Source: Flaccisagitta enflata (taxonomy: Eukaryota). Taken from it: a stretch of DNA of 64,000 bases. The notes beneath the pieces are model-generated. The model was not told where the DNA came from. It ran no database searches and worked only from the letters and a program-made list of their open reading frames with translations. The position numbers were made by a program, and so were the translations under genes. How positions within the stretch are numbered: the stretch's first letter is position 1; every line of letters begins with the position of its first letter. The stretch lies in NCBI GenBank assembly GCA_965153355.1, contig OZ231126.1, positions 31,248,001 to 31,312,000 of the forward strand, written 5' to 3'. This document shows positions 6,293 to 63,493 of the stretch, in pieces.

Positions 6293-7312
6293 GTCATATT
6301 CATCTACGGTTAGGTCAATAGAGCTTGGGATAGCTCTGATAGAGCTCGAAAAAGGTCTGATAGAGCTTGGAATAGGTCTGATAGAGCTCGGAATAGGTCT
6401 GATAGAGCTCGGGATAGGTCTAAAAATTCATGTTCCTAGTCATTTCATTCATCATCACATTCATCTATGGTAAGGTCAATAGAGCTTGTTTAAAATAGGT
6501 CTGATAGAGATAGGGATAGGTCTAAGATAGAGTTTACCTATACGCTTTTCATACGCCACCTCTACCGGAAGTGGCAGATGAGACGCAAAAACGTATTTGG
6601 CACTAAAATGAGTTTCTTGTTGGCGTTTTTCAGGTTTTTCACTTGGCAATGAAGGAGTAGTAAGATTCAGGGAATTCATAGTGAATTTTCTGTGATCATT
6701 TTGAAAATTTAGTTAAAAATTTCCAGAATTTTTTTGCTAGCATCAAAAGATTATTTTCATTTCTTATTTCTATTAATTTTTGTTATTTTCATCAGTTCTC
6801 ATATTTTATGATTCACTTTTCATTTTTCATTTTTCATTTTTTACTTTTCACTTTTCACTTTTCACTTTTCACTTTTCACTTTTCACTTTTCACTTTTCAC
6901 TTTTCCTTTTCCACTTTTCACTTTTTACTTAACACTTTACACTTTTCACTTTTTTTTCACTTCTCATTTTTGACTTTTCATTTTTTATTTGTTTTTTTTT
7001 TCTTTTATGTTTCATTCATTACTTTTTATTATTTTTTTTTCTTTTCAATGTACCATACTTTTAATAATTCTGTTGTCACTTTTTTTATCTTTTTCATTTA
7101 TATTTTTACTCATATTTTGTTAATCAAATTTATTGTAATTATCTCATTTATTATATTTCATAGTTATATATATTTCACAAGTTGATTTGTTTTGATAAAA
7201 CAGAAAATAAAGTAAAATAGATGATCGATGATTCTCCCTCATGCTAATATCAAGATTGTATCATCCCAAAAGAAATGCTAAAATGAGTCCAGAATCAAGT
7301 TCTTCTTGTCTA

Positions 7313-7914
7313 CAGTGGGGTTCATGGAATAGCAGCCTAAATTGGAGGAAGGTATTTAAGTGTCTTAATTTCATTTGACAAACTTGATATTTGAAATATA
7401 AGTTGTTCACTTGACGCTTTTGTCCCTGAGTTTTTCAGTTGCTATGGAAACCAAAATTATTTTTTCAATCATTTATAACCGCTAAAATATCAATATTTTG
7501 AGAAATATTATCAGGGAACATTGCTCAAAATTAAATTTGCTACAACTTTCCCACAGTATGTTCTGTGAGAATATTGCTCGTTTGGCCGTTGCTAGGGGGC
7601 ATCACACCTAGCAACCGCTAAATGATGCTCCCTAGCAACGGCTAAACGAGCAATATTCTTACAGAACATACTGTGGGAAAGTTGTAGCAAATTGAATTCT
7701 GAGCAATGTTCCCTGATAATATTTGTCAAAATATCGATATTCTAGTTGTTATGAATGTTCAAAAAAATAATTTTGGTTTCCATAGCAACCAAAAAACTCA
7801 GGGACAAAAGTATCAAGTGAACAACTTATATTTCAAATATCAAGTTTGTCAAATGAAATTAAAACACCTAAATACCTTCCTCCAGTTTAGGCTGTTATTC
7901 CACGCACCCCACTG
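7313..7914. mobile_element. Fold-back Tc1/mariner-type MITE
   Basis: ~600-bp imperfect palindrome, ends cagtgggg...ccccactg, flanked by TA. Confidence 0.9.
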
Positions 7915-7928
7915 TATGTCTGTTTGTG

Positions 7929-16789: not shown

Positions 16790-16914
16790 TTTTATCATTC
16801 ATAAGCACGACTAGGCAAGTATTTCTAATTTGACGATATTTGCTAGAAAAAGTAACAAAGGAAAACAGTTTGTGATTATCGCTTCGCTGTGATGCAATCA
16901 CTGCCAGTCTGTAC

Positions 16915-18371
16915 CTGTAAAAGTTAGTTTGACGATGTTCTTTTTGCCCGGCAGATATTTCAAGATGAACATCGAGTCATTTTCGGCGATTTTCGTGTTT
17001 TTGCATTTGAGTCTTTGATCTTCGCAAATCGAACATCGAAAACGACTTTGTAGCATGTCGCAATCCAAAGGGAGGAGAAGCTCAAGAGGAGAAGAGGGAG
17101 AAGAGGGAGGAGGTTGAGGAGAAGGAGGAGTGGGAGGTTGCTGCAAAGGGGCGCCGCGACGAGATCGTGAGGAAGATGAGGAGTTGACAATTTCGGAAGC
17201 GGAAGAAGAAGAGGAAGAGGAGGAGGATATTTGGAGGGTGGATAAAGATGAATTGATTGGAAATGGGTAAGCAGAAAAGGATATGATTGAGGAAGTGAAG
17301 TTTGAGGAAGACGAGAGAGGAAAGGGAGAGGGAGAAGGAAAGGCCGGAGAGGGAGAAGGAGAGGAAGTGGAAGAGGGATAGGGATAGGGATAGGAAGAAA
17401 GAGAAGAAGAGTCATGGAAATATGCTGAAGGGGAGAAGTTAGATAATGGGATTGGAGTTTTGGCAGAAGCATAGGAATGTCTCGCAGCTGCCTGTGTCTT
17501 TTGATTCATTATAATTGACTCGTGAGGAACGGTTTCATTGGTGTTGAAATTCGAAAAGAGGGAATTTTGGGGTGAAATGAATTCAAATTTGTTTACATTT
17601 TTTGAAAGATGAGATACTTTCGCTTTATGGGTTTTTAAAACATCGGAATTAATTTCATGTTTGGAAGATTTGAAGAGTTTTACGAGTTTAGAAAATGGAT
17701 TAACACTCGAGTTATTTGCATAGATTGTATCGTTTTTCAGCGCGAACACATTTGGAACGACTTGACGTTGTTTTATCGAGGATGATTTATTTGAAAAGAC
17801 GGATGCAGATGGGACGAAAGGGAAGAGTCGTATTCGTCGCTTCCTGGACGCAGGTGCCCCTTGGCCAGAATGAGGAAACAATTTGATTGGTTTTCTCCAC
17901 AATGGGTTAGTCGTAGTGGAAATCAACGGCGGCGGAGATCGCTTTTGTGTGGGGAACTCGTTTCGACTGTTCGTGGAATTAAGGACGGGCTGATGAATGG
18001 TTAACGTAGAATGATGAGTGGAAGGATTCGAAAGCTGAGAGAATGTGGAAGATTCTTTGTTCATACTAGGAGTAAGTGTTTCATTTGCAATGATCTTTAC
18101 ATGAGAGTCTCTGAATGAAACAGTCGTGATATTTCGAATGTTAAGCGAAACTGGCGTTGATGTTACCGAATACTCGGAAGTAATTGCATGAGTCTTGGAT
18201 AAAATGAAAGAAGATGATTCCGGGACTACATTGACTCGTTTGCCACGCGCTTGATACTCCTCGTCGTTTCTCGCTTTGGAAAATGTTTTCTCGAGTAAAT
18301 CAATTTTGACGTTTTCTTCTTTGGAGTCATGATCGATTTCGTGTTGTTGCTTTTGCGCCTTGAAGAAATTC
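16915..18371 (-). CDS. Large internal exon (~485 codons) of an unidentified gene: Ser/Pro/Asn-rich region followed by a Cys-rich LRR-N-cap-like motif
   Basis: The frame stays open 102 codons upstream of the ORF-track ATG, up to acceptor tttccatctttacag|g (18371). Donor acag|gtacag at 16915. C-terminus LDCDMLQSRFRCSICEDQRLKC...LKYLPGKKNIVKLTFTG. Confidence 0.65.
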
Positions 18372-18540
18372 CTGTAAAGATGGAAATGAAATACTTACTA
18401 GATGTAAATCTTATTCTGAGTTGCTTTCAAACCTTTTAACCATTAGAGGTAAGAAAAAAAAAAGAAAGAAAAAAGGCACACATTTTTACTTGCGTCGTGG
18501 AGAAGTGCGCACACATTATTGACGCGCGCACACGTTAATG

Positions 18541-18840: not shown

Positions 18841-19439
18841 CGTTAATGACACGCACGCACGTCAATGGCATCTCTCACGTGCATCACTGGAACCATTCAA
18901 CAACGGTCAATTCATTCTCAAGATTAACCTCTTAATTTGGCTCTTATCTTTTGACTCCGTTAGCTACTATAAGTTTCTTTATCCAGCTTTTGCTGTTACA
19001 CGCTCATGTACTTTATGATTTTGCTGAGGCGTAAAAGTTCAAACGTCTCTATAGATATATCTCCCGTGAATTCAGCCATTTTCTACTTAATCGTCGCATT
19101 ATGATAATTCTCTGTTTTTGTCGCTTCCACCTTTCCTTATTTTGTATAAGTCTATCCTGCATGCAGTGTGTCATTGATTGCTCGATTGCGTAGAAATGCT
19201 TTTTCATTTGCGTAAAAATGCCATCGCTTGCTATACTGCATGCAGAGCGTACTTGCTGGCACGATTGAGTACAAATGCCATTGCTTGCTCGATTATTTTC
19301 AAATGCCATTGCTTATACAATTGGTTAAAAGTGTCATTACTTGCTCGATTGCGTACAAACGCATTACATGCTCCACTGCATGCAGTCTGTCATCGCTCAA
19401 TCGATCGCATGCAGTACTCGATTTCCCGGTCGACCGCGC

Positions 19440-20539
19440 GCACTCCGCTATTGCCTTAAGCAGCCTACCATCTAAACTTTTTGAGTTTGCCATTCAGATC
19501 AAAACTTCCGATTTATTGCAAACGGATGAACTTCAGTTTGGATTCAAACGAAAAACCAGCACTAGTCATGCAATCTATTGTCTCAAATCAACTGTCGAGC
19601 ATTTCACTACTCACAACTCAAGGGTCTACGTGGCGTTTCTGGACTGCACGAAGGCTTTTGACAGAATTTCTCATTTTGGTCTTTTCACTGAACTAATGAA
19701 AAGAGGGATTCCCTTATGCATACTTTTATGCCTATTTTTCTGGTATGGGAGTATGTTTTCGGAAGTGAAATGGAGTTCGGAAAGAAGTCGTTCATTTCCG
19801 GTGCCTCTTGGCATAAAGCAAGGGGGTATCAACTCTCCGGATTTCTTTGCATGTTATTTCAACGGGCTAACACAGCTACTACGTCAACTGAAACTTGGTT
19901 GTCACGTCGGTAACCTATTCCTCGGCTCTCTATTCTTTGCCGATGACATTGTCCTTCTTGCCCCAACTCGATCTGCACTTCAACAAATGATAAACTGCTG
20001 TCAAGGTTATTGCAGACAATATGGCTTGGCTTTCAATGCTAAAAAGTCAAAGATAATGATCTTTTCAAAAACGTCCTTTGACAAAAATGCCATCGAGCCC
20101 CTGAGAATTGGAGACACACCTATTGACTGTGTTGACCAAATCAAGTACCTTGGGACCACCATAATAAGTAAGCCCTCTTTTTGTTTCTCACATGAAGATG
20201 ACTTACGTTCCTTCTATAGAGCATCAAACTCGGTTTTGAATCAGGTTGGTTCAGCAAACGAGCCCATACAAATGAAGCTTCTTTACTCGCATTGCGTCCC
20301 ATGCTTTTCCTACGCCTCCGCAGCAAAAGAATATTCCTCGCGACAGATGAACGACTGTACTGTTGCTCTGAATGACGCTATCCGGAAGATATTTACTTTC
20401 CATCGGTGGGAAAGCGTCCGCACATTGAGAGAAGAATTGGGCTACCCTGCCCTAACTGATATTTATGCTCAGGCTAGAAACAGATTTGAAAAATCGCTTC
20501 CTGGCCATCTCAACTCCACTGTTTCGCGTCTATTTCACC

Positions 20540-20619
<80 letters not shown>

Positions 20620-20681
20620 CCGTAGAAACAACATCTCTGGGCTCCTTCCCTTGATTCCACAATGTGGCCAAGGGGAGTCCC

Positions 20682-36876: not shown

Positions 36877-37588
36877 AAGAAAGTGAAAGAGAGAAAGTAA
36901 GAAAGAAAGTAAGAAAGAAAAAGATAGAGAGAGAGACAGAGAGAAAAAGAGTGAGAGAGAGATGCTTGAAGATTTTTGTAAATATTGTCTTTTTCTTCTT
37001 CTTCTCTCTCTCTCTCTCTCTCTTTATTTCGAAATATTTTTTAGTCGCGTGCACGCAACTCTACAACCCGCTTTGTCTGTCGGTCGGTCGGTTGGTCAAA
37101 CTTTACTTTTTTCATCACTTTTATTGCTTTAAGTTATTTCTAGTCATTCTAAGTAATTTTAAGGCATCCTAAGTCATTTTTAGTCATTTTAAGTCATTTT
37201 AAGTCATTTTTGGTCATTTTAGGTCATTCTAAGTCATTCCAAGTCATTCTTAGGCATTCTAAGTCATTTTCAGTCAGTAAGTCTTGCACGCGACTTATAG
37301 GTGTTGGCCTTGTTTCATTACATTTACTTAACTTGCATATTTGAGTAATATCTTTGAACACAAGCTGATGCTAGCTGACACTACTGATCAGGATGAGATT
37401 TTGCATAGGAATGGATATATATCAGGGGCAGTTGAATCTCGGTCTGCAGCTTTATGCAAGCACTGGAAGTTGGTCAAATCAATGTTTTGATATTTCATGT
37501 ATTCAAAATAGTGTTAGGAAAATAAAAGAAATTTCTCAAAATAAAAGAAATTTCTCAAATTTTGCTTGAATCCATATCATGTCATGCT

Positions 37589-38202
37589 TACGCTGAGGAG
37601 AATACACTTTTTTTCATGCAGGGACCCAGAGGAGGGCCCAGATCTTTGTATTTTGATGTAACTAATGTATTCCATAAATTTCAGGACCATAGCCATTCTT
37701 AAACCTTCATCATATTGCACTTGAAAAATGGTTCATCCTTAAGGGGGCTAAAATTTCAAAATCATTTTTCCTCAAATCTGATGCTAGATTCAGATTCCTT
37801 GTAAAAAATTATGTCCGATACTATATTTTCTTTTTTTGAAATTTTGTTTTTAAGCTGGAAAAAATGCAAAAATCCTTTAAAAAGACCTTGTTTTTTAAAA
37901 ACCTTTATTTTTGGAGGTTTTTTGCATTTTTTTCAGCTTAAAAACAAAATTTTGAAAAAAGAAAATATCGTATCCGACATAATTTTTTACAAGGAATCTA
38001 AATCTGGCATCAGATTTGAGGAAAAATGATTTTGAAATTTTGGCCCCCTTAAGGATGAACCATTTTTCAGGTGCAATATGATGAAGGTTTAAGAATGGCT
38101 ATAGTCCTGAAATTTTTAGAATACATTAGTTACATCAAAATACAAAGATCTGGGCCCTCCTCTGGGTCCCAGCATGAAAAAAAGTGTATTCTCCTCAGCG
38201 TA
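37589..38202. mobile_element. Fold-back palindromic element (~610 bp; inner ttaagggggc...gcccccttaa, Kolobok-like)
   Basis: Arms tacgctgaggagaatacac... / ...gtgtattctcctcagcgta. Weaker symmetry continues outward. Confidence 0.85.
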
Positions 38203-39095
38203 GTCATGCTGCACAAGATTCCAGAAAAATAAGAGGATATTTTGAATTATTAATTGCATATTATTTAGCTAAATGAAACACGCATAAATGATATTTTGTT
38301 ATAAACGATTTTTGTATGTAACAAACATTACAGCAAATCTATAGTCTATAGTCTATAGTCAAAAGTCTCACAATTCTAGATATACTTTTTATTCCTTATT
38401 ATCTTTATATTAACCATTTCAAATTTAGAAAAGGACTCAACACTTGATCCAATGACAGCAAACATTATTCCAGAGGACATTCCGCTCTTCTGCAAATACT
38501 TAGTTAAAGGGGGAACAGGGCAGCTGCCCGAAAGGGGTTGATGACCTATGCTTTCACACATATGGGGAATTTTTTCTTCCTTCTTCTCCTTCTCTTCCTC
38601 CACTGTCCCCCTCCCCTCTGACTCAGATAGCCTCAAGGCAAATCCCAGCCTTCAGGCCCAAATCCCAGCCTTGAGGCCCAAATCCCAGTCCTGGGGATTC
38701 AAGGATGACATTTGAGCATCAAAGCTGAGATCTGGGCCTCAAGACTGGGATTTGGGCCTGAAGGCTGGGATTTGGGCCTTGAGGCTAGGATCTGAGTCAG
38801 AAAGGGGGGGGGGGCAATAAGAAGGGGAAGGAGAAGAAGGAGGAAAAAATCCCCTATATGTGTGCAAGCATAGGTCATTGACCCCTTCGGGGCCGCTGCC
38901 TGTGTGAGAACACGATTTCCGCCCCTGCTGTTCCCTATCCGCAACGATTTTGCGACCACGGGCTACTTCTTCATCTTTCTCACTGACGGTTCTTTAAAAC
39001 GTTAACTCTCTCATAAGTCATAATCTATCTCTATTTCTTTTGGCCTCACTATCTTTCTGTTTCTCTGTCTGACTTTCTCACTCACTCACTGACTC

Positions 39096-53680: not shown

Positions 53681-56135
53681 AGAATAAGTACTGCTTAGTG
53701 CGCCTCCAAACATATGTGAAATTGAAAATAGAAATAAAATTCAAAGTATCATTGGTAAGAGAATATTTTTCCTAAAAAGGGAGGGGGGTTGAGAGACTGA
53801 GGGGCGCTAATTAGAAGGTGGTGCTAATTAAAGGGAGGGCTCAAAGTGTCAGTGTTCGAGAAAGGAAGACGTCAAAGGGAGATTGTGTCCAAAGTTTAAA
53901 GGCGTCTTGTGAGCATGCACGAAGAGGATTCTGTCTACAAAGGAGAAAAAAACTTGCAACGACTATTGTAGGATTTCTTTTCTGAGGAACATGTCTTGAA
54001 TATCAAAACCGTTTCCGAAACTCATAAACGAGGCTATGTGGGAGCCTCATCCGGACTGTGTTCACATTGAGAGCAATATCCCGGATTAGACCAAAAGAAA
54101 GGCAAATAGATCATCCACAGATCAAGTCAGGCCAATGCAATGGTACCATAGCCCTGCTCTGCATACTTTACAGGAGTTCCATCAACAACAAAATTGTACC
54201 CCCCAAAAATCCTGTCCTAACCTGGCTTCTATATGCATCTTAAAAAGGCAACTGTACCTTCAGTTGAATACAGCATTAACGGACCTTCAGGGAGAAAAAA
54301 ATGTATCTCTTACAAGCAGATTTATTCTAAAACTAACTTAGAATATAAAGAGAACGAGTTGAAAAGACCACAGAATTACATCCATTGTCTACAGAGTTCC
54401 TTTACTGAAGTGTCCGCTGGAGCACCTGCAAGTTTAGCTGTATCAAGTAATCAACTCTTCCCCCTTTTCAAATCTTCAATCCTCTCATTTATATCAACAT
54501 GATTTATCTCGTCCATTCTCTCCTCTTCCTTTTCCTCTTTCTTTTTCTCTTCCCCTTCCACCCAACCCCGGAGGGGCCGGCAACCCCCCAAACATGCCGT
54601 AAGAATCGATTTCTAGTCGCGTGCTACGCGACTCTACTACCCACTTTGTCAGTCCATCCGTCAGTCCATCGGTCTGTCGGTCCGTCGGTCCGTCGGTCTG
54701 TCCGTCGGTCCGTCCATCCGTGGGTCCGTCCGTCTGTCACACTTTACTTTTTTTGGGTTTTTGCAGTCTTTGGCCTCACTGCTCCTGCCCAAGTGATCAA
54801 ATGACCTCAAATACGGCCCCTGCCCACCCGCACGCGACTGGGGTAGCCGTGTATCCGGCCTTGTTTTTTATTGTTTTGCATAGATTAATGTTCAACTAAG
54901 AAGAATCTGCTGCCAAATCAATTCCTACGATCCAAGAAGATAGCTAGAATTAATTTTGGTAATATCAAAAATTAGGAAAACCAGATTGCAATGGCAATCG
55001 TCACATAAGAGGTTAGGGAAATATTTGATTGTTCTTAACAAAGCGCAGCAAAGGATATCTCATCAATGTTTCACTTCTTCCTCAACCGCACTTTGACATG
55101 CAACAGGGCCGGCTACACGGCTACCCCAGTCGCGTGCGGGTGGGCAGGGGCCATATTTGTGATCAGTGGAGCATTTGGGCAGGAGCGGTATAGCCAAAAA
55201 CCCCATAAACGCTGAAAAAGTAAAGTGTGACGGACCGACGGACCGATGGACCGACAGACCAATGGACCAACGGACCGACAAAGCGGGGTGTAAAGTCGCA
55301 TAGCACGCGACTAAAAATCGGTTTTTGTTAGTAATCATAGATTACAAATTGATCAAAGAATTTCTCGGTGACTTTTCCTGACTGTAAAAAGCTGAAAAAT
55401 CAAAACTAAGAGGTAGAATTTGTTCAATAGAAAATAGTTGCACCCTAAAAGAGTCCTTTAGACATTATTAGCCTCCTTCCTCCTCTGCCCCCAACCACCC
55501 GGATGTAATTCCCATTCTCCCTTCCTTTTCAGCTTTTAACTAAAATCATAAATAGTTGGAAAAACGGGTAAAAATCCAAATGTGGAAACCCCGAGAGGAA
55601 TAACAGATGAAATGAAACCATAAACATAAAAAAAGAAGGAAATAAAACAACAAATAAAATGAAAACAAACCGGGAATCCGCGACTAAAAGCTTGGAAAAC
55701 CACCTAATCCTCTTTGTTTTCTAAGTAGGATTATACTCCACAATAACGGATGTCAAGGTCTTACCAATTCTTTTTGTTATAGGTGGATTTCCGCATTACC
55801 AATATAAGAAACAACTAAAAAAAACTGTAGGGTTAGAAGTTCTATTTGGATAGCGTATATGGTTTCAATGGTATTTTGCGCCTTATTTTTTTTTTCTTTT
55901 TTTATGAAAACATAGCTTATCCGAGCGTTTTTAAGAAAACTATGGCTAGAAAAGTCTGCTGGAAAAAAGAATGAAAAAAAGCGCAATAAAAGCTTACTGT
56001 AAGAACCGTTTGAAATCGTTTTCGATTTTGTCTTCTGCTTTATAATCAAAAAACTGCTCGACCTGGAGATTTGTGAAAATGTAGGGTAATACCCAAGCCC
56101 GGGCCATTTTGCATTTTCTTTAACAATACAATACA

Positions 56136-56656
56136 TGTGCGGGCTCGCGTGAGCAAGCACTGTTCATTTGTTTTAAGACTTTACTTTGCCTCTAAAAACT
56201 TACCTTTTAGTAGCGCCCTCTATTAATAGTTCACCGCTTCGAAGTGAACGGAAACTAAGTTGGATTGTTTGATACATGCCAAGAGATTTTCCTTATAAGA
56301 GCGTTTACCTGCTGTTTAGTCCATTCGCTCATCTTTATTCCTTCGCTTTAATCGTTTATTCATGATTAAGGAGTAAATAAGCCTACTAATGTTACTCTTT
56401 TTCCATCCTTTGCAGATTAATGATGAATTGATTAGCATTACTTACCCTCTGGTTCCCTGAATGCCGAAATGAGTTGAAGTTTCAGGTACTAAGCCTTCTA
56501 AAGATGTAAATTGATGTGCTAACGATTGCCGTTAATTATTACTGCTCATTGCCTAAGTTGTTAATGATTACTAATGATTGCTAATAAATTATTTCAGACC
56601 GTTAATTGCGTCGTCACTACTACTCCGGTTAGTAAGAAAGGGAGCGAGCGGGCACA
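56136..56656 (+). repeat. 5' LTR
   Basis: Matches 61765-62285 except 2 substitutions seen (gact/gacc; caccg/catcg). AATAAA at 56583. Confidence 0.96.
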
Positions 56657-56669
56657 AGCTTCAACTCAT
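56657..56669 (+). promoter_or_regulatory. Putative non-tRNA (self-priming) primer-binding site agcttcaactcat
   Basis: Abuts the 5' LTR, lacks TGG, and is complementary to LTR 56469-56481 (atgagttgaagtt) with one G-U pair. Confidence 0.55.
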
Positions 56670-56791
56670 CGCTTTGCTGGTTGTCGTCGGCGCCGAGCCC
56701 CGCTGACGTCATTGGTGGCGATGTTACGATGGATGTCAAGAGCTACGTCCTCTGAAGTTTAACGTCGGAACCGATTCCCGCCGACGTAACG

Positions 56792-57223
56792 ATGGACGTC
56801 AAGAGTCACGTCCTTGGAATTTCAAAGTCGGAACCGATTCCAGCCGACTCAAAGATGGGCGTCAAGAGTCACGTCCACCAAGCGATGGATCGGCATCAGC
56901 TTCCTGCCATCTATCAACTACGCCAAGATTCTCTTCTCTCCGCTACGACGCGTTCGCCGGAGACAACCCAAGAAATTTATCACCTTTTTTGTGCTGCTAA
57001 CAACGCCATCAGCTATACCGTTGTCACGCTGCAACTCCAAGACATTTCCTACACATTGTGGGAATATTTCTACGTCGTCATCGAGCCTTACCGTCTCCTT
57101 TTAGAAGAGACACGCCGTTTCATTAATGGACAGTCGCCATTTTGTTTGATGCATTTACCAAACCTTTCCTCTACAATGCTGCCTTCGGCAATGAGCAAGA
57201 GTCTCATGCCACTACGACGATGA
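56792..57223 (+). CDS. LTR-element ORF1, 143 aa, unknown function
   Basis: ATG-initiated. N-terminus comes from a 63-bp repeat. Its TGA overlaps the ORF2 ATG. Confidence 0.5.
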   Translation: MDVKSHVLGISKSEPIPADSKMGVKSHVHQAMDRHQLPAIYQLRQDSLLSATTRSPETTQEIYHLFCAANNAISYTVVTLQLQDISYTLWEYFYVVIEPYRLLLEETRRFINGQSPFCLMHLPNLSSTMLPSAMSKSLMPLRR

Positions 57224-59412
57224 ATGGCCAGGAAGAGGATGAAAGTGGCGGTGGTGTTGACATCAGTCTAAGAGAAAGTGGCGGCGACGGCGTTCTCGAT
57301 GGTGGAGGCGGCGGCCATGATGGTGGCGGCAGAAGTGATGGAGGCGGTGGAGATGTCGATCGCCAAGTCGCGCACAAGGCATCGACGGAAAATCAACATC
57401 GTCCTCTTTATTCAGATCTCTTTGCCACTCACTTAGAATCTGATAACAACAACGACGATCAAGAAAGAAAAGAGTCGTTGTTAGGAAGACTTGAAAGAAA
57501 AATAAACGAAATCCTGAAATTGGATGAAGAAATGAATTTCCGTTTTACGATGAAAAAAGCGGATTTGGAAGAGGCAATGGAAAATGAATTGGACTCTATC
57601 TACGAAGCCATGATGGACGGAGATAGTGAGAAAATTGGCATCATTATGATTAAGATTAAGGAGGAGATGAACAAATTCATGTTGGCGATGGAGAGAGAGG
57701 GAAAAGAAAGATCTGGAGTGAAAGAGAGGAAGAAGGAAGGAAAAGAAATCTTCGACGTCTCATGCATGACCGCCTCACAACCGGAAGTGCCTCCAGTCCC
57801 ATGTCCATCGATCAACGAAGAAAATCAGCTTCTCACTGCCACCAACTTTTCTCTCCCTTCACGTCCTGTTCATCATTCTGACGAGCCTCTTCTTTACGAT
57901 TCATCTTCTTCATCATCTACGTTTTTGAATTTGTCGGCATCTCTCACAAATTTGCCGGCACCTGCCAAGATTTTGCCGGCACCTGCCAAGATTCAGCCGG
58001 CACCTGTTAAGAACACGCCGGCCCCTGCTAAGATTACGTCGGCACCTGCTATGACTTTGCCGGCATCTGATACGAATTCATCTGCAGACTACCAAGCATC
58101 TTTGATCGACCATTCACGTCCGTCGACATCATCTGTAGACCACCAAGCTCCTTCAGTCAATCATCCGTTGACATCATCTACAAACCGCCAAGCTTATTCT
58201 GTCGACCGTCGGTCATCATCTGCAGACCGCCTAGAATCATCTGACGGCCGCCCGTCGTCATCTGGAGACATCCACGTACCTTCCTTCCATCTTCAGTCAT
58301 CATCTGAAGACCACCAAGTATCATCTGTGGATGAACAAGCCTTTACTTTCGATCGTCGGTCATCATCTGTAGACTACCAAGCTTCTTCAGTAAATCATCT
58401 GTTGACAACATCTACAGACCACCAAGCTTATTCTGTCGACCGTCAGTCATCTGCAGACCCTCAAGAATCATCTGACGATCGCCCGTCGTCATCTGAAGAC
58501 ATCCACGTCTCTTCTTTTCATCTTCAGTCATCATCTGAAGACCACCATGTATCATCTGTGTATGAACAAGCCATCACCTTCGATCGTCGGTCGTTATCTG
58601 TAGACTGCCAAGCCTCCGTCAGTCATCTGTTGACATCATCTACAGACTACCAAGCTTCCTCTATCGATCATCGAACATCTGCAGACTACCAAGATTCATC
58701 TGCAGACGGCAAGGATCCATCTGACGGCACTCCGTCGTCATCTGGAAACTACAAAGCCTCTCCTTTTCTCCCTTTTTTCCGAGGGACCACTCGTCGGGAA
58801 CTTTGCGACGAGAAGACTTACGCGAGGGCAAAAAAGCGAAAGAAGAAGAGATTTTTTCCCTCTCAACTTTTCTACGCCAGAAAAGAAAAGAAAAAGCCGC
58901 GTCTTCGACGTTACGAGTTCGAGTCCAGGAGGAGAAAAAGAAAAAAGAAAAGAATTCTCCGTCTCCACTCGAAAAACGGCCTACTAGACCGTACCCCGAA
59001 AAACAACCACGCTTCTGCGGGCCACAACCACGCTTCTGCGGGCCACAACCACGCTTCTACGGGCCACAATCACGCTTCTACGGGCCATCCTTACGACTCT
59101 ACGGGCCATCCTTACACTTCTACGGGCCATCCTTACGCTTCTAAGGGCCATCCTTACGACTCTACGGGCCATCCTTACGCTTCTACGGGTCAAGATATTC
59201 TCGGCAGCTACGCTACGATATTCTCGGTCACTACGCTACGATATTCTCGGCCGCTACCCCACGAGATTTCCGGCCGCCACCCCACAAGATTCCCGGCCGC
59301 CACCCCTCAAGATTCCCGGATGCCACCCCAAGCCTTTTCCCGCGGCAACGATGTCACGGGCCTTCCGATTACGTTACCGACGCTACGTCATCGTGAAGGG
59401 AGGAAAAAGTGA
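57220..59412 (+). CDS. LTR-element ORF2, 730 aa from the first ATG: Gly-rich N-terminus, helical/coiled-coil block, Ser/Asp-rich repeats, basic NLS-like clusters, heptad repeats
   Basis: 2.2-kb uninterrupted frame. No CCHC knuckle, protease, RT (YxDD) or integrase motif recognised. Confidence 0.7.
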   Translation: MNGQEEDESGGGVDISLRESGGDGVLDGGGGGHDGGGRSDGGGGDVDRQVAHKASTENQHRPLYSDLFATHLESDNNNDDQERKESLLGRLERKINEILKLDEEMNFRFTMKKADLEEAMENELDSIYEAMMDGDSEKIGIIMIKIKEEMNKFMLAMEREGKERSGVKERKKEGKEIFDVSCMTASQPEVPPVPCPSINEENQLLTATNFSLPSRPVHHSDEPLLYDSSSSSSTFLNLSASLTNLPAPAKILPAPAKIQPAPVKNTPAPAKITSAPAMTLPASDTNSSADYQASLIDHSRPSTSSVDHQAPSVNHPLTSSTNRQAYSVDRRSSSADRLESSDGRPSSSGDIHVPSFHLQSSSEDHQVSSVDEQAFTFDRRSSSVDYQASSVNHLLTTSTDHQAYSVDRQSSADPQESSDDRPSSSEDIHVSSFHLQSSSEDHHVSSVYEQAITFDRRSLSVDCQASVSHLLTSSTDYQASSIDHRTSADYQDSSADGKDPSDGTPSSSGNYKASPFLPFFRGTTRRELCDEKTYARAKKRKKKRFFPSQLFYARKEKKKPRLRRYEFESRRRKRKKKRILRLHSKNGLLDRTPKNNHASAGHNHASAGHNHASTGHNHASTGHPYDSTGHPYTSTGHPYASKGHPYDSTGHPYASTGQDILGSYATIFSVTTLRYSRPLPHEISGRHPTRFPAATPQDSRMPPQAFSRGNDVTGLPITLPTLRHREGRKK

Positions 59413-60343
59413 GAAACTAGTTCAATTTGTATCTTCGGCAACTTCGCTTAATTCGATGAAAAGAAGACGCCGTTTTTGTGATAACATTTTGATTGATGTT
59501 CTTAGTACTCTCACTCTTTTTAGCTCTTTCTTGTCAGTTAGTTCATGCTGCCATTGATTTTTGCATTTTGTTCTTCAAATTTGCCGACGTGAAAATGTGT
59601 CTCAAGTCTCAATGAAAGCTGCTCTAGTGATAAAAGAGCCCGCCGTTATGATATGAAATATTGCTCCAGTAAGGAGCCTTTGCCGTTGCTCCAGTGTAGA
59701 GCTTACGCCGTTTAGTTTAAGATTATGATTCGACGCTCCTGCATGCTGCTCAAGAACGAGTTTACGCGTCAACGATTATTCTCTGCACCTCCGCTCCTAC
59801 AGACTTTTCCTTCTCTCTCCAACTGCAACTCGCCGACGAGCTTTGGTTCTTTGGGTTAGAATAATATGGAATGAAGGAAGTGGGGGGTGGGAGGGGGAAA
59901 AAGTTTTTGTTTGCGTTAACAATTACATTGCGATTAATTACGCTTACTTTTTCCGTTTTAAGTTTCAAGCTTTTTCTTTGCATCTACTACACAATGCAGT
60001 TAGAGGTGCTTTAATTTTTTACATTCATAAATTATCAACGATCATTTTGATGCTCAAGAGAGTATCATTTTTGAATGTAATTATCATATTTCCCCTTTTC
60101 ACGATTACTCTTTTCATGATACGATCCCGAGTAATTTTCCATTGTTGATTTGCGCATCAACAACCACCTTGAAGTCAATGATGCTTATAAGCGTTTTCTT
60201 ACGTTCATGATAATAAGCAAGTTAAGATTTCATGTACATTCTCTCTTGTTGACAAAGAATTTGCGTCAACAACTACCCTAAAGTTTACGATGCTTACATT
60301 TATCTTTTCCCTATTGTTGACAAAGATTTTGGGTCAACAACTA

Positions 60344-60955
60344 CAGTACCTTCCGAGCAAACCCGGCTAAAACTGGAGGATTAATTTTTTTAATTTTATT
60401 TCCCAAACTTTATTTTTTGTATATAATTTAATTAAAAGATACTTAATTGCTTGAACATATTTGGCTGTCAAAAAAAATAACTTGTGAAATCAAAGTGCAT
60501 GAGGACATCAATATTAAGTGTTCTAACCCAGACCATTGGATTAGGCAGAAAATTTTATGTATCCTAGATTACAAGAACAGCTCAGTCAGATAATTATTTC
60601 AGATTTTACAGCCATTTAAAGTTTTTAAGGACAATTGTCTCAAAATAATTTAGGACAATTGTCCTTAAAAACTTTGAATGGCCATAAATTCTGAAGTAAT
60701 TGTTTGACTGAGCTGTTCTTGTAGTCTAGGATAGGTAAAATTTTCTGCCGAATCCAATGGTCTGGGTTAGAACACTCAATATTGATGTCTTCATGCACTT
60801 TGATTTCACGAGTTATTTTTTTTGACAGCCAAATATGTTCAAGGAATTAAGTATCTTTTAGTTAAGTTTGATGCAAAAAATGAAGTTTGGGAAATGAAAT
60901 TAAAGTAACAAAAATTAACCCTCCAATTTTAACCGGGTTTGCTCGGAAGGTACTG
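60344..60955. mobile_element. Fold-back Tc1/mariner-type MITE nested in the LTR element
   Basis: TIR cagtaccttccgagcaaacccgg, TA TSD, ~610-bp imperfect palindrome. Confidence 0.92.
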
Positions 60956-61146
60956 TACATCCAAGTTTAAGATTTTCATTTTGATTAATTCTTTTTTGTT
61001 TGAGAACGGAATTTTCCCCTCTTTAAAATCGTGACTGCCCCAATCTTTCCCTCACGATCTTTTCACTTTAAAGTAGGATGGGTAATTAATTCCCTAAAGC
61101 ATTTGATAAGATAAAGAGAATTATTTCAGGCATTGCGATGCTCTAC

Positions 61147-61710
61147 CTTTTGGCCTTTTGCTTTCATGCTTTCAAGTTTGGCCTTTTGCTTTCATGCTTT
61201 CAAGTTTGGCCTTTTGCTTTCATGCTTTCAAGTTTGGCCTTTTGCATTCATGCTTTCAAGTTTGGCCTTTTGCTTTCATGCTTTCAAGTTTGGCCTTTGG
61301 CTTTCACGCTTTCAAGTTTGGCCTTTTGCTTTCATGCTTTCAAGTTTGGCCTTTTATGCTTTCAAGTTTGGCCTTTTGCTTTCATGCTTTCAAGTTTGGC
61401 CTTTTGCTTTCATGCTTTCAAGTTTGGCCTTTTGCTTCCATGCTTTCAAGTTTGGCCTTTTGCTTTCATGCTTTCAAGTTTGGCCTTTTGCTTTCATGCT
61501 TGGCCTTTTGCTTTCAAGTTTGGCCTTTTACTTTCATGCTTTCAAGTTTGGCCTTTTGCTTTCATGCTTTAAAGTTTGGCCTTTTGCTTTCATGCTTTCA
61601 AGTTTGGCCTTTTGCTTTCATGCTTTCAAGTTTGGCTTTTTGCTTTCACGCTTTCAAGTTTGGCCTTTGGCTTTCACGCTTTCAAGTTTGGCCTTTGACT
61701 TTCATGCTTG
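61147..61710. repeat. 28-bp minisatellite ggccttttgctttcatgctttcaagttt, ~20 units
   Basis: Head-to-tail units without spacers. Confidence 0.95.
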
Positions 61711-61754
61711 CGCTTACGATTTCTCATGCTTGCGCTGGACATGTTTTACAGTCC

Positions 61755-61764
61755 AGGTGGGGGG
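61755..61764 (+). promoter_or_regulatory. Polypurine tract aggtgggggg
   Basis: Purine-rich run immediately 5' of the 3' LTR; sets element orientation as +. Confidence 0.85.
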
Positions 61765-62285
61765 TGTGCGGGCTCGCGTGAGCAAGCACTGTTCATTTGT
61801 TTTAAGACCTTACTTTGCCTCTAAAAACTTACCTTTTAGTAGCGCCCTCTATTAATAGTTCATCGCTTCGAAGTGAACGGAAACTAAGTTGGATTGTTTG
61901 ATACATGCCAAGAGATTTTCCTTATAAGAGCGTTTACCTGCTGTTTAGTCCATTCGCTCATCTTTATTCCTTCGCTTTAATCGTTTATTCATGATTAAGG
62001 AGTAAATAAGCCTACTAATGTTACTCTTTTTCCATCCTTTGCAGATTAATGATGAATTGATTAGCATTACTTACCCTCTGGTTCCCTGAATGCCGAAATG
62101 AGTTGAAGTTTCAGGTACTAAGCCTTCTAAAGATGTAAATTGATGTGCTAACGATTGCCGTTAATTATTACTGCTCATTGCCTAAGTTGTTAATGATTAC
62201 TAATGATTGCTAATAAATTATTTCAGACCGTTAATTGCGTCGTCACTACTACTCCGGTTAGTAAGAAAGGGAGCGAGCGGGCACA
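61765..62285 (+). repeat. 3' LTR
   Basis: Direct repeat of 56136-56656. Confidence 0.96.
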
Positions 62286-63493
62286 ATACACTATACAATT
62301 TTTCTAAGTATTGGGCCAATACAATACCATACCAATACAATACAATATCTTAAAGAATTGTACCCAATACGTAATAATATTTTAATTCACTTAATAAAAA
62401 ATCTTTGTTGGATCTTCAATGAATAGTTGAAGCTCTAACTAATTTTCTTTTTATATGCTTGATCAAAAAAGATTTTTTGAATATTTTCTTAACTTTCATA
62501 TATCAATATTTTTTTTCATATACTTTTTATCTTTGCCTCTTTAGGTAAGTCTCTTTGTCTGTGTTTGTCCTTGTGTGTGTGTGTCTGTGTGTGTGGGTGT
62601 CTTTCTCTCTCTCTCTTTTTCTTTTTCCCTTTTTCTCCGTTATCATCTCTATTTATCTGTTTGTCAGTCTGTCTGTCTGTCTGTCTTTCTGTCTATCTGA
62701 CTGTCTGTCTGTCTGTCTTTCTCTCTCTTTCTCTCTCTCTGAGTGTACTGACCCAGGATTAGATCTGAGAGAAAATCAATCTTTCCTCCTCCTCATCCTC
62801 TTCATCTTCCAGATCTCATCCTCTTCTTCTTCATTTTTTTTCTGCACTTCCTAAAAAATTGATCTCTCCTGATCCTCCTCATCCACCTAACCTTATCCTC
62901 TTCCTCTTCCCTACTTTTATTTTTCACCAGTTTGTTTGACCTTCCTAAGAATTCCACTAGTTTCTAAAAAAAAAAAAATATTGTATTGTATTGGGAAAAT
63001 AACAATACCCATAATAAGTATTGGGTAAACCCAATACTTATAAGTATTGTAAATACAATACAATACCCAATACGAATCGCCCCGCCTGTAATACCCCATT
63101 GCTAAGCCCTTGCAGTGAAACGATCTTTCTCTGATGTAACACACTGCCCCCCTCCCCGGTTCACTAAGCAAGAAATAAACAAGTAAAATGTAAGGGAGCG
63201 GACTTTTAGTTTATTTCTTTGCCAAAAATGTTTGAATATTTAAAGACATTTAAACTTAACAGAAAATAAAGTTAAAGTTGAACCGCGCCACGAGAGATGT
63301 CAATGGACTAACGAATTTCATCCATTCTAGGCGTATCTATGTTATTGCCAAATTGGAAATTAAAAAAAAAAAACATGAAGTGACCATCAATTCTTACCCG
63401 TTATAGGCGGATTGTCACTGTTCTAGGATAATAGGGAGGTGTAACTGGACGTAAATGCCTCTTTTTTCTTACTCGCGAGGCAAAAAAAATATA

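What the first reader, a model, noticed from the sequence alone, without database searches (positions are those of the whole stretch)
56136..62285. Recently transposed LTR element carrying orphan genes instead of gag-pol
Seen: LTRs ~99.6% identical, a perfect 5-bp TSD, a PPT, and a 5.1-kb interior with 143-aa and 730-aa ORFs lacking any retroelement motif I recognise. Established: non-autonomous LTR elements (LARD/TRIM) are mobilised in trans and are usually non-coding. Inference: a parasitic LTR family that keeps its own protein, perhaps a highly diverged Gag, an RNA-binding/packaging adaptor or an anti-silencing factor. This is the best candidate for an undescribed system in the window.
Basis: partly seen in the sequence, partly recalled or inferred. 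Interest (0 to 1): 0.85.

Follow-up and report, generated by a model that had tools for sequence, protein, structure and literature searches.

The report
Non-autonomous LTR retrotransposon with orphan ORF
This is a young copy of a multi-copy LTR retrotransposon from a marine organism that has no reverse transcriptase or integrase but carries one long protein-coding frame of no known family in the place where gag normally sits; plants have comparable elements, so it is a new family of modest interest.

Summary
There are two 521-bp LTRs with 2 mismatches, TG..CA ends, a 5-bp ATACA target duplication, a purine tract before the 3' LTR and a 5,108-bp interior with no protease, RT, RNase H or integrase signal.

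Three things change the reading.
1. The 143-aa and 730-aa ORFs are one ancestral frame of about 885 codons. All 5 sister fragments that reach the junction cross it in one frame. The window copy is frame-broken at about 57160-57166.
2. No tRNA-type primer site follows the 5' LTR. Instead, 11 bases there are exactly complementary to a site inside the LTR, which suggests Tf1-like self-priming.
3. The family is multi-copy in a marine organism. Some sisters are broken at other places.

The frame looks maintained: it has 0 stops against 43-53 in the three opposite-strand frames, and indels are mostly in-frame. The amino-acid sequence looks weakly constrained. No Gag or other family was detected.

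The closest known kinds are plant TR-GAG elements and RLG_Quinta, which are non-autonomous LTR elements that keep a Gag ORF. Interest is modest.

The parts
56131..56135 (+). Left copy of the 5-bp target-site duplication (ATACA)
   Evidence: Contigs with the uninterrupted site carry one copy (table 5).
56136..56656 (+). 5' LTR, 521 bp, with ends TGTGC...GCACA
   Evidence: 2 mismatches to the 3' LTR.
56469..56479 (+). Predicted self-primer inside the LTR. It is the inferred first bases of the transcript, i.e. the U3/R border.
   Evidence: It is exactly complementary over 11 nt to 56659-56669, and 1 of 5000 shuffled LTRs reaches 11. The minimum-energy fold pairs 14 bases here. The transcription start itself was not observed.
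56583..56588 (+). AATAAA, a candidate polyadenylation signal that would place the R/U5 border about 15-25 nt downstream
   Evidence: Read. The role is inferred.
56659..56669 (+). Primer-binding site of the self-priming type, 2 nt after the LTR. No TGG tRNA-type site is adjacent.
56719..56876 (+). 63-nt tandem repeat (2.5 units) that forms the repeated 21-aa N-terminal units of the ORF. The first unit carries a stop in this copy.
56792..57223 (+). It is the N-terminal part of the single ancestral frame and includes a conserved ~90-aa non-repetitive block.
57160..57166 (+). Place where this copy's frame is broken by a one-base length difference from its sisters. Here the sister proteins pass from the ORF1 frame into the ORF2 frame.
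   Evidence: tblastn of P0002, P0009, P0010 and P0011; alignment of 5 sisters; a one-letter length difference listed at 57159 in part of the contigs (table 4).
57220..59412 (+). It is the rest of the ancestral frame.
57400..57789 (+). Glu/Lys/Leu/Met-rich, probably helical block (ORF2 aa 61-190)
   Evidence: Composition. Amphipathic 3.5-3.6-residue periodicity in aa 84-130 is reached by 28 of 2000 shuffles, and is not significant in aa 131-176. The block is conserved in P0010, P0004 and P0005.
57951..58076 (+). Pro/Ala-rich 21-nt repeats (PAPAKI-type units). The unit number differs between sisters.
58066..58788 (+). Ser-rich block built from 42/45-nt units and a 231-nt repeat (2.5 units). It is absent from sister P0006.
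58789..58968 (+). Lys/Arg-rich basic cluster, a candidate nucleic-acid-binding part
   Evidence: Composition: pI 11.8 for aa 560-625. The tail of P0006 continues into this stretch in the same frame. The function is inferred.
59003..59330 (+). His/Gly-rich 21-nt repeats followed by 23-nt repeats at the C-terminal end of the frame
59413..60343 (+). Non-coding interior
   Evidence: No long frame and no Pfam hit.
60344..60955 (.). Nested foldback (MITE-like) insertion with ~256-nt inverted arms, flanked by TA on both sides. The family is extremely abundant in the runs.
   Evidence: Inverted repeat I3; sequence; very high summed depth at 60112-60963; termini resemble the foldback at 7311-7916.
61149..61709 (+). 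28-nt minisatellite (about 21 units) upstream of the purine tract
61755..61764 (+). Purine-rich tract (AGGTGGGGGG) abutting the 3' LTR
61765..62285 (+). 3' LTR, 521 bp
62286..62290 (+). Right copy of the target-site duplication (ATACA)

Best explanation
The stretch 56136-62285 is a recent insertion of a non-autonomous LTR retrotransposon that belongs to a multi-copy family of a marine eukaryote.

How it moves (inferred): it has the cis signals for reverse transcription and integration, namely LTRs with TG..CA ends, a purine tract, and a primer site that pairs with a sequence inside its own LTR. That pairing suggests self-priming of the Tf1/sushi kind. It has no protease, RT, RNase H or integrase, so it must be copied and inserted by the enzymes of an autonomous partner that has not been found.

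What it encodes: one long frame of about 885 codons sits in the gag position.

What the protein does (inferred): I read it as the family's own Gag-equivalent, a structural or RNA-chaperone protein. It has a conserved N-terminal block, an amphipathic helical block for self-association, a long disordered middle inflated by in-frame minisatellite expansions, and a Lys/Arg cluster that would bind RNA. It would favour packaging of the family's own RNA into the partner's particles.

Shown: the anatomy, the single frame, the family, and the lack of pol.
Inferred: mobilisation in trans, self-priming, and the Gag-like role. I put the Gag-like role on its own at about 0.35.
For: Anatomy.

No pol or gag domain: Pfam gave 0 families for both ORFs at E<=1. 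It gave nothing relevant in 9 other interior frames. It gave no Gag family in any of 10 family members at E<=10. No motifs were found.

One frame: 5 of 5 sister fragments that reach the junction (P0002, P0009, P0010, P0011, P0012) are continuous across it. tblastn shows the switch from the ORF1 frame to the ORF2 frame at 57160-57166 for the 4 long enough to give two matches.

Frame maintained:
- The composite frame has 0 stops, against 43-53 stops per 885 codons in the three frames of the opposite strand.
- At that stop frequency, the chance of 370 open non-repeat codons is about 7e-10.
- The ORF2 N-terminal part shows purine-rich first codon positions.
- Between the window and its sisters there are 9-13 in-frame gap events against at least 4 frame-breaking ones. 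A rough binomial P against one third is 0.002-0.02.
- Of the tandem-repeat rows that lie inside the frame, 11 of 13 have periods that are multiples of 3. For those in the non-coding interior it is 0 of 6.

Family: many contigs at 90-99% likeness lie on the whole interior in a DNA run of the organism and in a marine metagenome. Twelve sister protein fragments come from metagenome assemblies, at 46-93% identity.

Self-priming: there is an 11-nt exact complement 2 nt after the LTR, reached by 1 of 5000 shuffles, and it is paired in the minimum-energy fold. The mechanism is described for Tf1 and Tj1 (PMC4600332, passages read). It is predicted for Tf1/Sushi, Tcn1 and TAR lineages (PMC6317226, passages read).

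Precedent for non-autonomous LTR elements that keep an ORF: PMC4350172 (abstract read) and PMC11302176 (passages read).
Against: - No similarity to any Gag or capsid family by sequence or to any solved structure's sequence. The best PDB E-value was 0.016, on a Gly-rich or helical stretch.
- No fold could be computed.
- Of the 15 single-letter differences listed inside the frame, only 2 are synonymous. That is close to a neutral expectation. These 15 come from the 40 rows shown; 287 more were not shown.
- This copy is frame-broken. Three sister contigs appear broken at different places within ORF2 aa 100-190. This is inferred from pairs of ORF pieces with equal contig lengths and abutting or overlapping positions.
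- No sister fragment was found for the C-terminal half beyond about aa 440 of the composite frame, except the short tail of P0006. Conservation of the Ser-rich, basic and His-rich parts is therefore barely tested.
- Open sister fragments are an ascertained sample, because databases hold called ORFs.
- No partner, transcription start or translation was observed.
- The target duplication lies in low-complexity sequence.
Confidence: 0.6

Rival explanations
1. The frame is a decaying relic with no present protein function. On this view the element is in effect a LARD-like non-coding passenger. Its old gag has drifted beyond recognition, and the frame stays open in recent masters by short history, by the stop-free tandem repeats, or because a long frame protects the RNA from decay.
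For: - Only 2 of 15 listed differences are synonymous.
- The window copy and three sister contigs are broken.
- Large parts of the frame are tandem repeats that are trivially open.
- The whole Ser-rich block is dispensable in P0006.
- No family or structure match was found.
Against: - There are 0 stops across about 885 codons, including about 370 non-repeat codons (P about 7e-10).
- Frames of 135-289 aa are open in five sister contigs that are only 65-93% identical to the window.
- There is an excess of in-frame over frame-breaking indels.
- The ORF2 N-terminal part shows codon-position composition bias.
Confidence: 0.25
2. The frame is not Gag-derived. It would be a captured host gene fragment or a newly arisen accessory gene that the parasitic family carries, for example a packaging adaptor or an anti-silencing factor.
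For: - No Gag signal at E<=10 in 10 family members.
- No CCHC knuckle.
- The architecture is unusual for Gag: Gly/Asp-rich acidic stretch, helical block, Pro/Ala repeats, Ser repeats and His repeats.
- LTR elements do acquire extra ORFs (PMC5408684, abstract read; PMC7264820 and PMC13317346, search listings only).
Against: - The frame starts about 135 nt after the primer site, where gag lies, and no other gag is present.
- Only family fragments matched among 1.84 billion representatives, and none was a cellular protein.
- Gag proteins are often too divergent for sequence profiles (recalled). The RLG_Quinta lineages show strongly divergent Gag variants (PMC11302176, passages read).
Confidence: 0.12
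3. The two ORFs are a real two-gene arrangement read through a programmed -1 frameshift in the 97-nt overlap, as in gag-pol junctions.
For: ORF2's frame is -1 relative to ORF1, and the frames overlap over 57127-57223.
Against: - Five of 5 sisters have one continuous frame across the junction.
- Only part of the contigs show the one-letter length difference there (table 4).
- I saw no classical slippery heptamer at the site in the sequence (the motif is recalled).
Confidence: 0.03

Closest known systems
TR-GAG elements of plants (Chaparro et al. 2015, PMC4350172; abstract read)
   Same: Both are non-autonomous LTR retrotransposons with normal LTR features that carry a single ORF in the gag position and no pol, and both are thought to be still active.
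   Different: TR-GAG elements are under 4 kb and their ORF is recognisably GAG. This element is 6.15 kb (about 5.5 kb without the nested foldback). Its roughly 885-codon frame has no detectable Gag similarity. The host is a marine organism, not a plant.
RLG_Quinta / RLG_Cereba pair of Triticeae (PMC11302176; passages read)
   Same: [quoted passage not shown] It keeps an intact ORF encoding GAG plus a domain of unknown function, and its Gag diverges fast between sublineages. Its partner was recognised by shared primer site and LTR termini, which is the test proposed here.
   Different: Quinta's GAG homology is clear and its partner is known. Here neither is shown.
LARD and TRIM non-autonomous LTR elements (definitions recalled; TRIMs in animals from search listings of PMC6934838 and PMC3532108)
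   Same: All have LTRs, a primer site and a purine tract without pol, and are mobilised in trans.
   Different: LARDs and TRIMs have no coding capacity, and TRIMs are far smaller. This element keeps a long frame.
Tf1/Tj1 and the Tf1/sushi group: self-priming LTR retrotransposons (PMC4600332 and PMC6317226; passages read)
   Same: The primer site next to the 5' LTR is complementary to an upstream stretch of the element's own LTR rather than to a tRNA 3' end. The target duplication is 5 bp (the 5-bp figure for Tf1 is recalled).
   Different: Those elements are autonomous Ty3/gypsy elements in which priming was shown by experiment for Tf1. Here there is only the sequence complement, with no RT to place the element in a lineage.

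Membership tests
LTR retrotransposon (structural definition) | Two direct long terminal repeats with TG..CA ends | tested here: met
   521-bp LTRs, 519 of 521 identical, ends TGTGC...GCACA.
LTR retrotransposon (structural definition) | Target-site duplication of 4-6 bp | tested here: met
   ATACA on both sides. Contigs with the uninterrupted site carry one copy. Caveat: the flank is low-complexity and repeated.
LTR retrotransposon (structural definition) | Primer-binding site next to the 5' LTR and purine tract next to the 3' LTR | tested here: met
   The purine tract AGGTGGGGGG abuts the 3' LTR. No tRNA-type TGG site is present, and no tRNA gene in the window was available for comparison. An 11-nt self-complement starts 2 nt after the LTR.
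LTR retrotransposon (structural definition) | Repeated, dispersed family | tested here: met
   Many diverged contigs lie over the LTR and interior in runs X1 and X3. Twelve sister protein fragments were found. There is no second copy in the window.
Autonomous LTR retrotransposon (Ty1/copia, Ty3/gypsy, BEL/Pao) | pol with protease, reverse transcriptase, RNase H and integrase | tested here: not met
   No Pfam hit in any interior frame tested: 2 + 9 + 2 frames. No motifs were found.
TR-GAG | A single ORF and no pol | tested here: met
   One ancestral frame and no pol.
TR-GAG | The ORF is homologous to GAG | tested here: not met
   No Gag family at E<=10 in 10 family members. No capsid among PDB sequence hits. 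Fold comparison could not be run, so remote homology is not excluded.
TR-GAG | Length under 4 kb | tested here: not met
   The element is 6,150 bp, or about 5,540 bp without the nested foldback.
LARD | Large non-autonomous LTR element whose interior has no coding capacity (definition recalled) | tested here: not met
   The frame of about 885 codons has 0 stops apart from one frameshift.
TRIM | Miniature size: short terminal repeats around a short interior (PMC6934838, search listing) | tested here: not met
   521-bp LTRs and a 5.1-kb interior.
Self-priming (Tf1/sushi-type) elements | Primer site complementary to the 5' end of the element's own transcript | tested here: inconclusive
   The complement to LTR positions 56469-56479 is significant and is paired in the fold. 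The transcript's 5' end was not observable, because the runs laid are contigs.
Self-priming (Tf1/sushi-type) elements | RT/integrase phylogeny within the Tf1/sushi clade | not testable with these tools
   The element has no RT, and the partner could not be sought because no genome is held.

The most novel reading that the evidence does not exclude
A parasitic LTR family of a marine plankton organism maintains, under frame-preserving selection, a lineage-specific protein that is not Gag. The protein grows by in-frame minisatellite expansion and acts as a packaging adaptor or counter-silencing factor. The element primes its own reverse transcription and borrows only enzymes from a partner.
Probability: 0.13. 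Interest if true: 0.65.

Novelty: new member of a known kind. Interest (0 to 1): 0.3.

Why it matters
Non-autonomous LTR elements that keep their own protein have been worked out mainly in plants (TR-GAG, Quinta, Sabrina). A marine example with an open but fast-changing gag-position frame and a predicted self-priming site would extend that pattern to a poorly studied genome. It would also give a simple handle for finding the autonomous partner: the shared LTR termini and the 11-nt primer pair. And it would be a case for asking whether such elements gain by supplying their own particle protein. If the protein proved unrelated to Gag, it would be more notable. As it stands, it is an undescribed transposon family of ordinary kind.

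Tried and rejected
Sister DNA and partner search
- No whole genome is held for the window, so copies, partner and dN/dS could not be examined.
- JGI metagenome contigs: the protein scan found no relative among 259 pattern matches.
- A 20-nt LTR-end/primer-site pattern gave one locus, L001. It shares only those 20 bases with the window. I judged it a chance match in what reads like a bacterial protein-coding gene and dropped it.
- Earlier findings of this scan: nothing for this genome, sequence or topic. The three rows concern unrelated LINE tails.

Protein searches
- ORF2 at near lengths gave none.
- ORF2 at shorter lengths gave 3 family fragments only, among 5000 capped candidates.
- PDB sequence searches gave only weak matches to Gly-rich or helical stretches, best E 0.016.
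- Rfam and tRNA scans of the window gave 0.

- As a result there was no fold test of the Gag hypothesis and no test of self-association.

Expression
- The two metatranscriptome runs gave only a few contigs, on the LTR/leader (56203-56750, about 91% alike), on 58507-58658 and on the 3' LTR. Most of the interior had next to no cover.
- One of these runs also covers the single-copy flank at low depth, so DNA carry-over cannot be excluded.
- I draw no conclusion on expression.

Other points set aside
- Runs with small word shares (X7-X20) were not used for habitat.
- A joint 60345 to 61004 in one contig does not coincide with the foldback's ends, so I do not count it as a copy lacking the insert.
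- Partner in the window: the only RT, at 19216-20622, is R2/LINE-like. 45 further window ORFs gave no retroelement domain.
- Amphipathic periodicity was not significant for the ORF1 block, for ORF2 aa 131-176 or for the Ser-rich block.
- PMC7264820 held none of the three terms I searched in it.

Full report
**Observation**

The element is real and sits at the stated coordinates.
- The LTRs at 56136-56656 and 61765-62285 are 521 bp each and differ at two positions, 56180 and 56234.
- They begin TGTGC and end GCACA.
- The five bases ATACA flank the element on both sides.
- The flank is AATAC-like low-complexity sequence, so the duplication alone is weaker than it looks. However, contigs of a DNA run of the organism join 56127 to 62283, which reconstitutes the uninterrupted site with a single ATACA. 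These are 8 contigs in X1, 1 in X3 and 2 in X20 (table 5).
- Because the flanks are repeated in that genome, these contigs may be paralogous empty sites rather than the empty allele. Either way they fix the element's ends.
- A purine-rich tract, AGGTGGGGGG, abuts the 3' LTR.
- With 2 differences in 521 bp, the insertion would be roughly 0.2-1.9 million years old at assumed rates of 1e-8 to 1e-9 per site per year.
- There is no second copy in the window.

**No pol and no recognisable gag**
- Pfam finds nothing at E<=1 in either ORF and nothing relevant in 9 other interior frames.
- It finds no Gag family at E<=10 in any of 10 family members.
- No CCHC knuckle, protease motif or HHCC motif occurs in any of the six frames. 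The only pattern matches are trivial ones in Asp/Glu-rich or repeat sequence.
- PDB sequence searches give only weak matches to Gly-rich or helical stretches.
- The only reverse transcriptase in the window, at 19216-20622, is R2/LINE-like.
- A further 45 window ORFs show no retroelement domain. The autonomous partner is therefore not in the window.

**One frame, not two genes**

An exhaustive profile search with the first 241 residues of ORF2 found 7 proteins. All are short fragments from metagenome assemblies on contigs of at most 1,743 bp. A search with one of them, P0002, found four more.

Five fragments (P0002, P0009, P0010, P0011, P0012) run without interruption from the sequence of 'ORF1' into that of 'ORF2'. 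tblastn places the change of frame at window 57160-57166 for the four that are long enough to give two matches. Read laying lists a one-letter length difference at 57159 in part of the contigs (table 4).

The ancestral gene is therefore a single frame of about 885 codons. It starts about 135 nt after the primer site, and the window copy carries a private frameshift. The break may have arisen after insertion, because the LTR divergence predicts a handful of changes in 2.7 kb.

**Is the frame maintained?**

For maintenance:
- The composite frame has no stop, while the three frames of the opposite strand have 43-53 stops per 885 codons.
- At that frequency, even the roughly 370 non-repeat codons would be open by chance with P of about 7e-10.
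- The ORF2 N-terminal part has a purine-rich first codon position.
- Five sister contigs at 65-93% identity are open over 135-289 residues.
- Between the window and its sisters I count 9-13 in-frame gap events against at least 4 frame-breaking events. A rough binomial P is 0.002-0.02 against an expectation of one third.
- Of the tandem-repeat rows that lie in the frame, 11 of 13 have periods that are multiples of three. For the rows in the non-coding interior it is 0 of 6.

Against maintenance:
- The fragments are called ORFs, so the sample is ascertained.
- Three sister contigs seem broken at different places within ORF2 residues 100-190. This is inferred from pairs of ORF pieces with equal contig lengths and abutting or overlapping positions.
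- Of the 15 single-letter differences listed in the frame, only 2 are synonymous. These come from the 40 rows shown; 287 were not shown.
- P0006 lacks the whole Ser-rich block yet continues in frame into the basic stretch.

My reading is that the frame is selected, but most of the amino-acid sequence is under weak constraint. That pattern fits a largely disordered, fast-evolving protein.

**The protein**

Along the composite frame:
- 21-residue N-terminal repeats;
- a conserved non-repetitive block of about 90 residues;
- a Gly/Asp-rich acidic stretch;
- a Glu/Lys/Leu/Met-rich block, whose first half has amphipathic-helix periodicity reached by 28 of 2000 shuffles;
- Pro/Ala repeats;
- a Ser-rich block made of a 231-nt repeat;
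- a Lys/Arg cluster (pI 11.8);
- His/Gly repeats.

Position in the element, a self-association-like helical block and a basic cluster are what a zinc-knuckle-free Gag would offer. This resemblance is inference, not homology.

**Priming**

No TGG tRNA-type site follows the LTR. Two bases after the LTR, the 11 bases at 56659-56669 are the exact complement of 56469-56479 inside the LTR. Only 1 of 5000 shuffled LTRs reaches 11. The minimum-energy fold of 56469-56700 pairs 14 bases there, although the fold as a whole is not unusually stable, with z = -1.16.

This is the layout of self-priming shown for Tf1, proposed for Tj1 (PMC4600332, passages read), and predicted for Tf1/Sushi, Tcn1 and TAR lineages (PMC6317226, passages read). 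It predicts a transcript start at about 56469. Together with the AATAAA at 56583, this implies a U3 of about 333 nt, an R of about 140 nt and a U5 of about 45 nt. None of this was observed directly.

**Family and host**

In a DNA run labelled with the organism (X1) and in a marine metagenome (X3), single contigs cover the unique left flank with few differences. Many contigs at 90-99% likeness cover the LTR and the whole interior. Summed word depth there is 25-100 times that of single flank contigs, but the tool warns that this is not a copy number. The organism, or a close relative, is thus present in marine plankton samples.

The interior also holds a nested 612-bp foldback flanked by TA, from an extremely abundant family. 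It also holds a 28-nt minisatellite.

**Comparison and verdict**

The element passes the structural tests for an LTR retrotransposon and fails those for an autonomous one. It is not a TRIM by size. It is not a LARD in the strict sense, because it has a long frame. It fails two TR-GAG criteria: size, and detectable Gag homology.

In function it most resembles TR-GAG elements (PMC4350172, abstract read) and RLG_Quinta. Quinta encodes only GAG plus a domain of unknown function and relies on RLG_Cereba, which shares its primer site and LTR termini (PMC11302176, passages read).

I file it as a new member of the known kind 'non-autonomous LTR retrotransposon that keeps a gag-position ORF', with a probable self-priming site. 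Its interpretation is partly supported. Its claim of an undescribed system is not supported by the present evidence, though a non-Gag protein remains possible at about 0.13.

Noticed in passing
window 19216-20622 (+): A 469-codon open frame with an RVT_1 domain (E 1.4e-25). Its closest solved relatives are R2 and LINE-1 reverse transcriptases, so it is a non-LTR retrotransposon fragment unrelated to the LTR element.
   Followed up: partly
window 37583-38208 and 7311-7916: Two more long foldback (palindromic) elements with ~300-nt arms at 92-94% complementarity. The one at 7311-7916 shares terminal sequence features with the foldback nested in the LTR element.
   Followed up: partly
window 55000-55567 and 62100-63235: The stretches flanking the insertion are themselves very high-copy repeats in the organism's DNA run: summed word depth reaches millions against about 130 for single-copy contigs. 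The element therefore landed in repeat-rich DNA.
   Followed up: no
whole window: The window is dominated by micro- and minisatellites with periods of 8-15, 20, 21, 27, 28 and 41 nt. It shows no Pfam-detectable host gene in 57 ORFs tested outside the element, no tRNA and no Rfam family.
   Followed up: partly
window 16898-18394 (-): A 498-codon open frame, Ser/Pro-rich and without any Pfam match, lies next to the LINE-like RT. Its nature is unknown.
   Followed up: no
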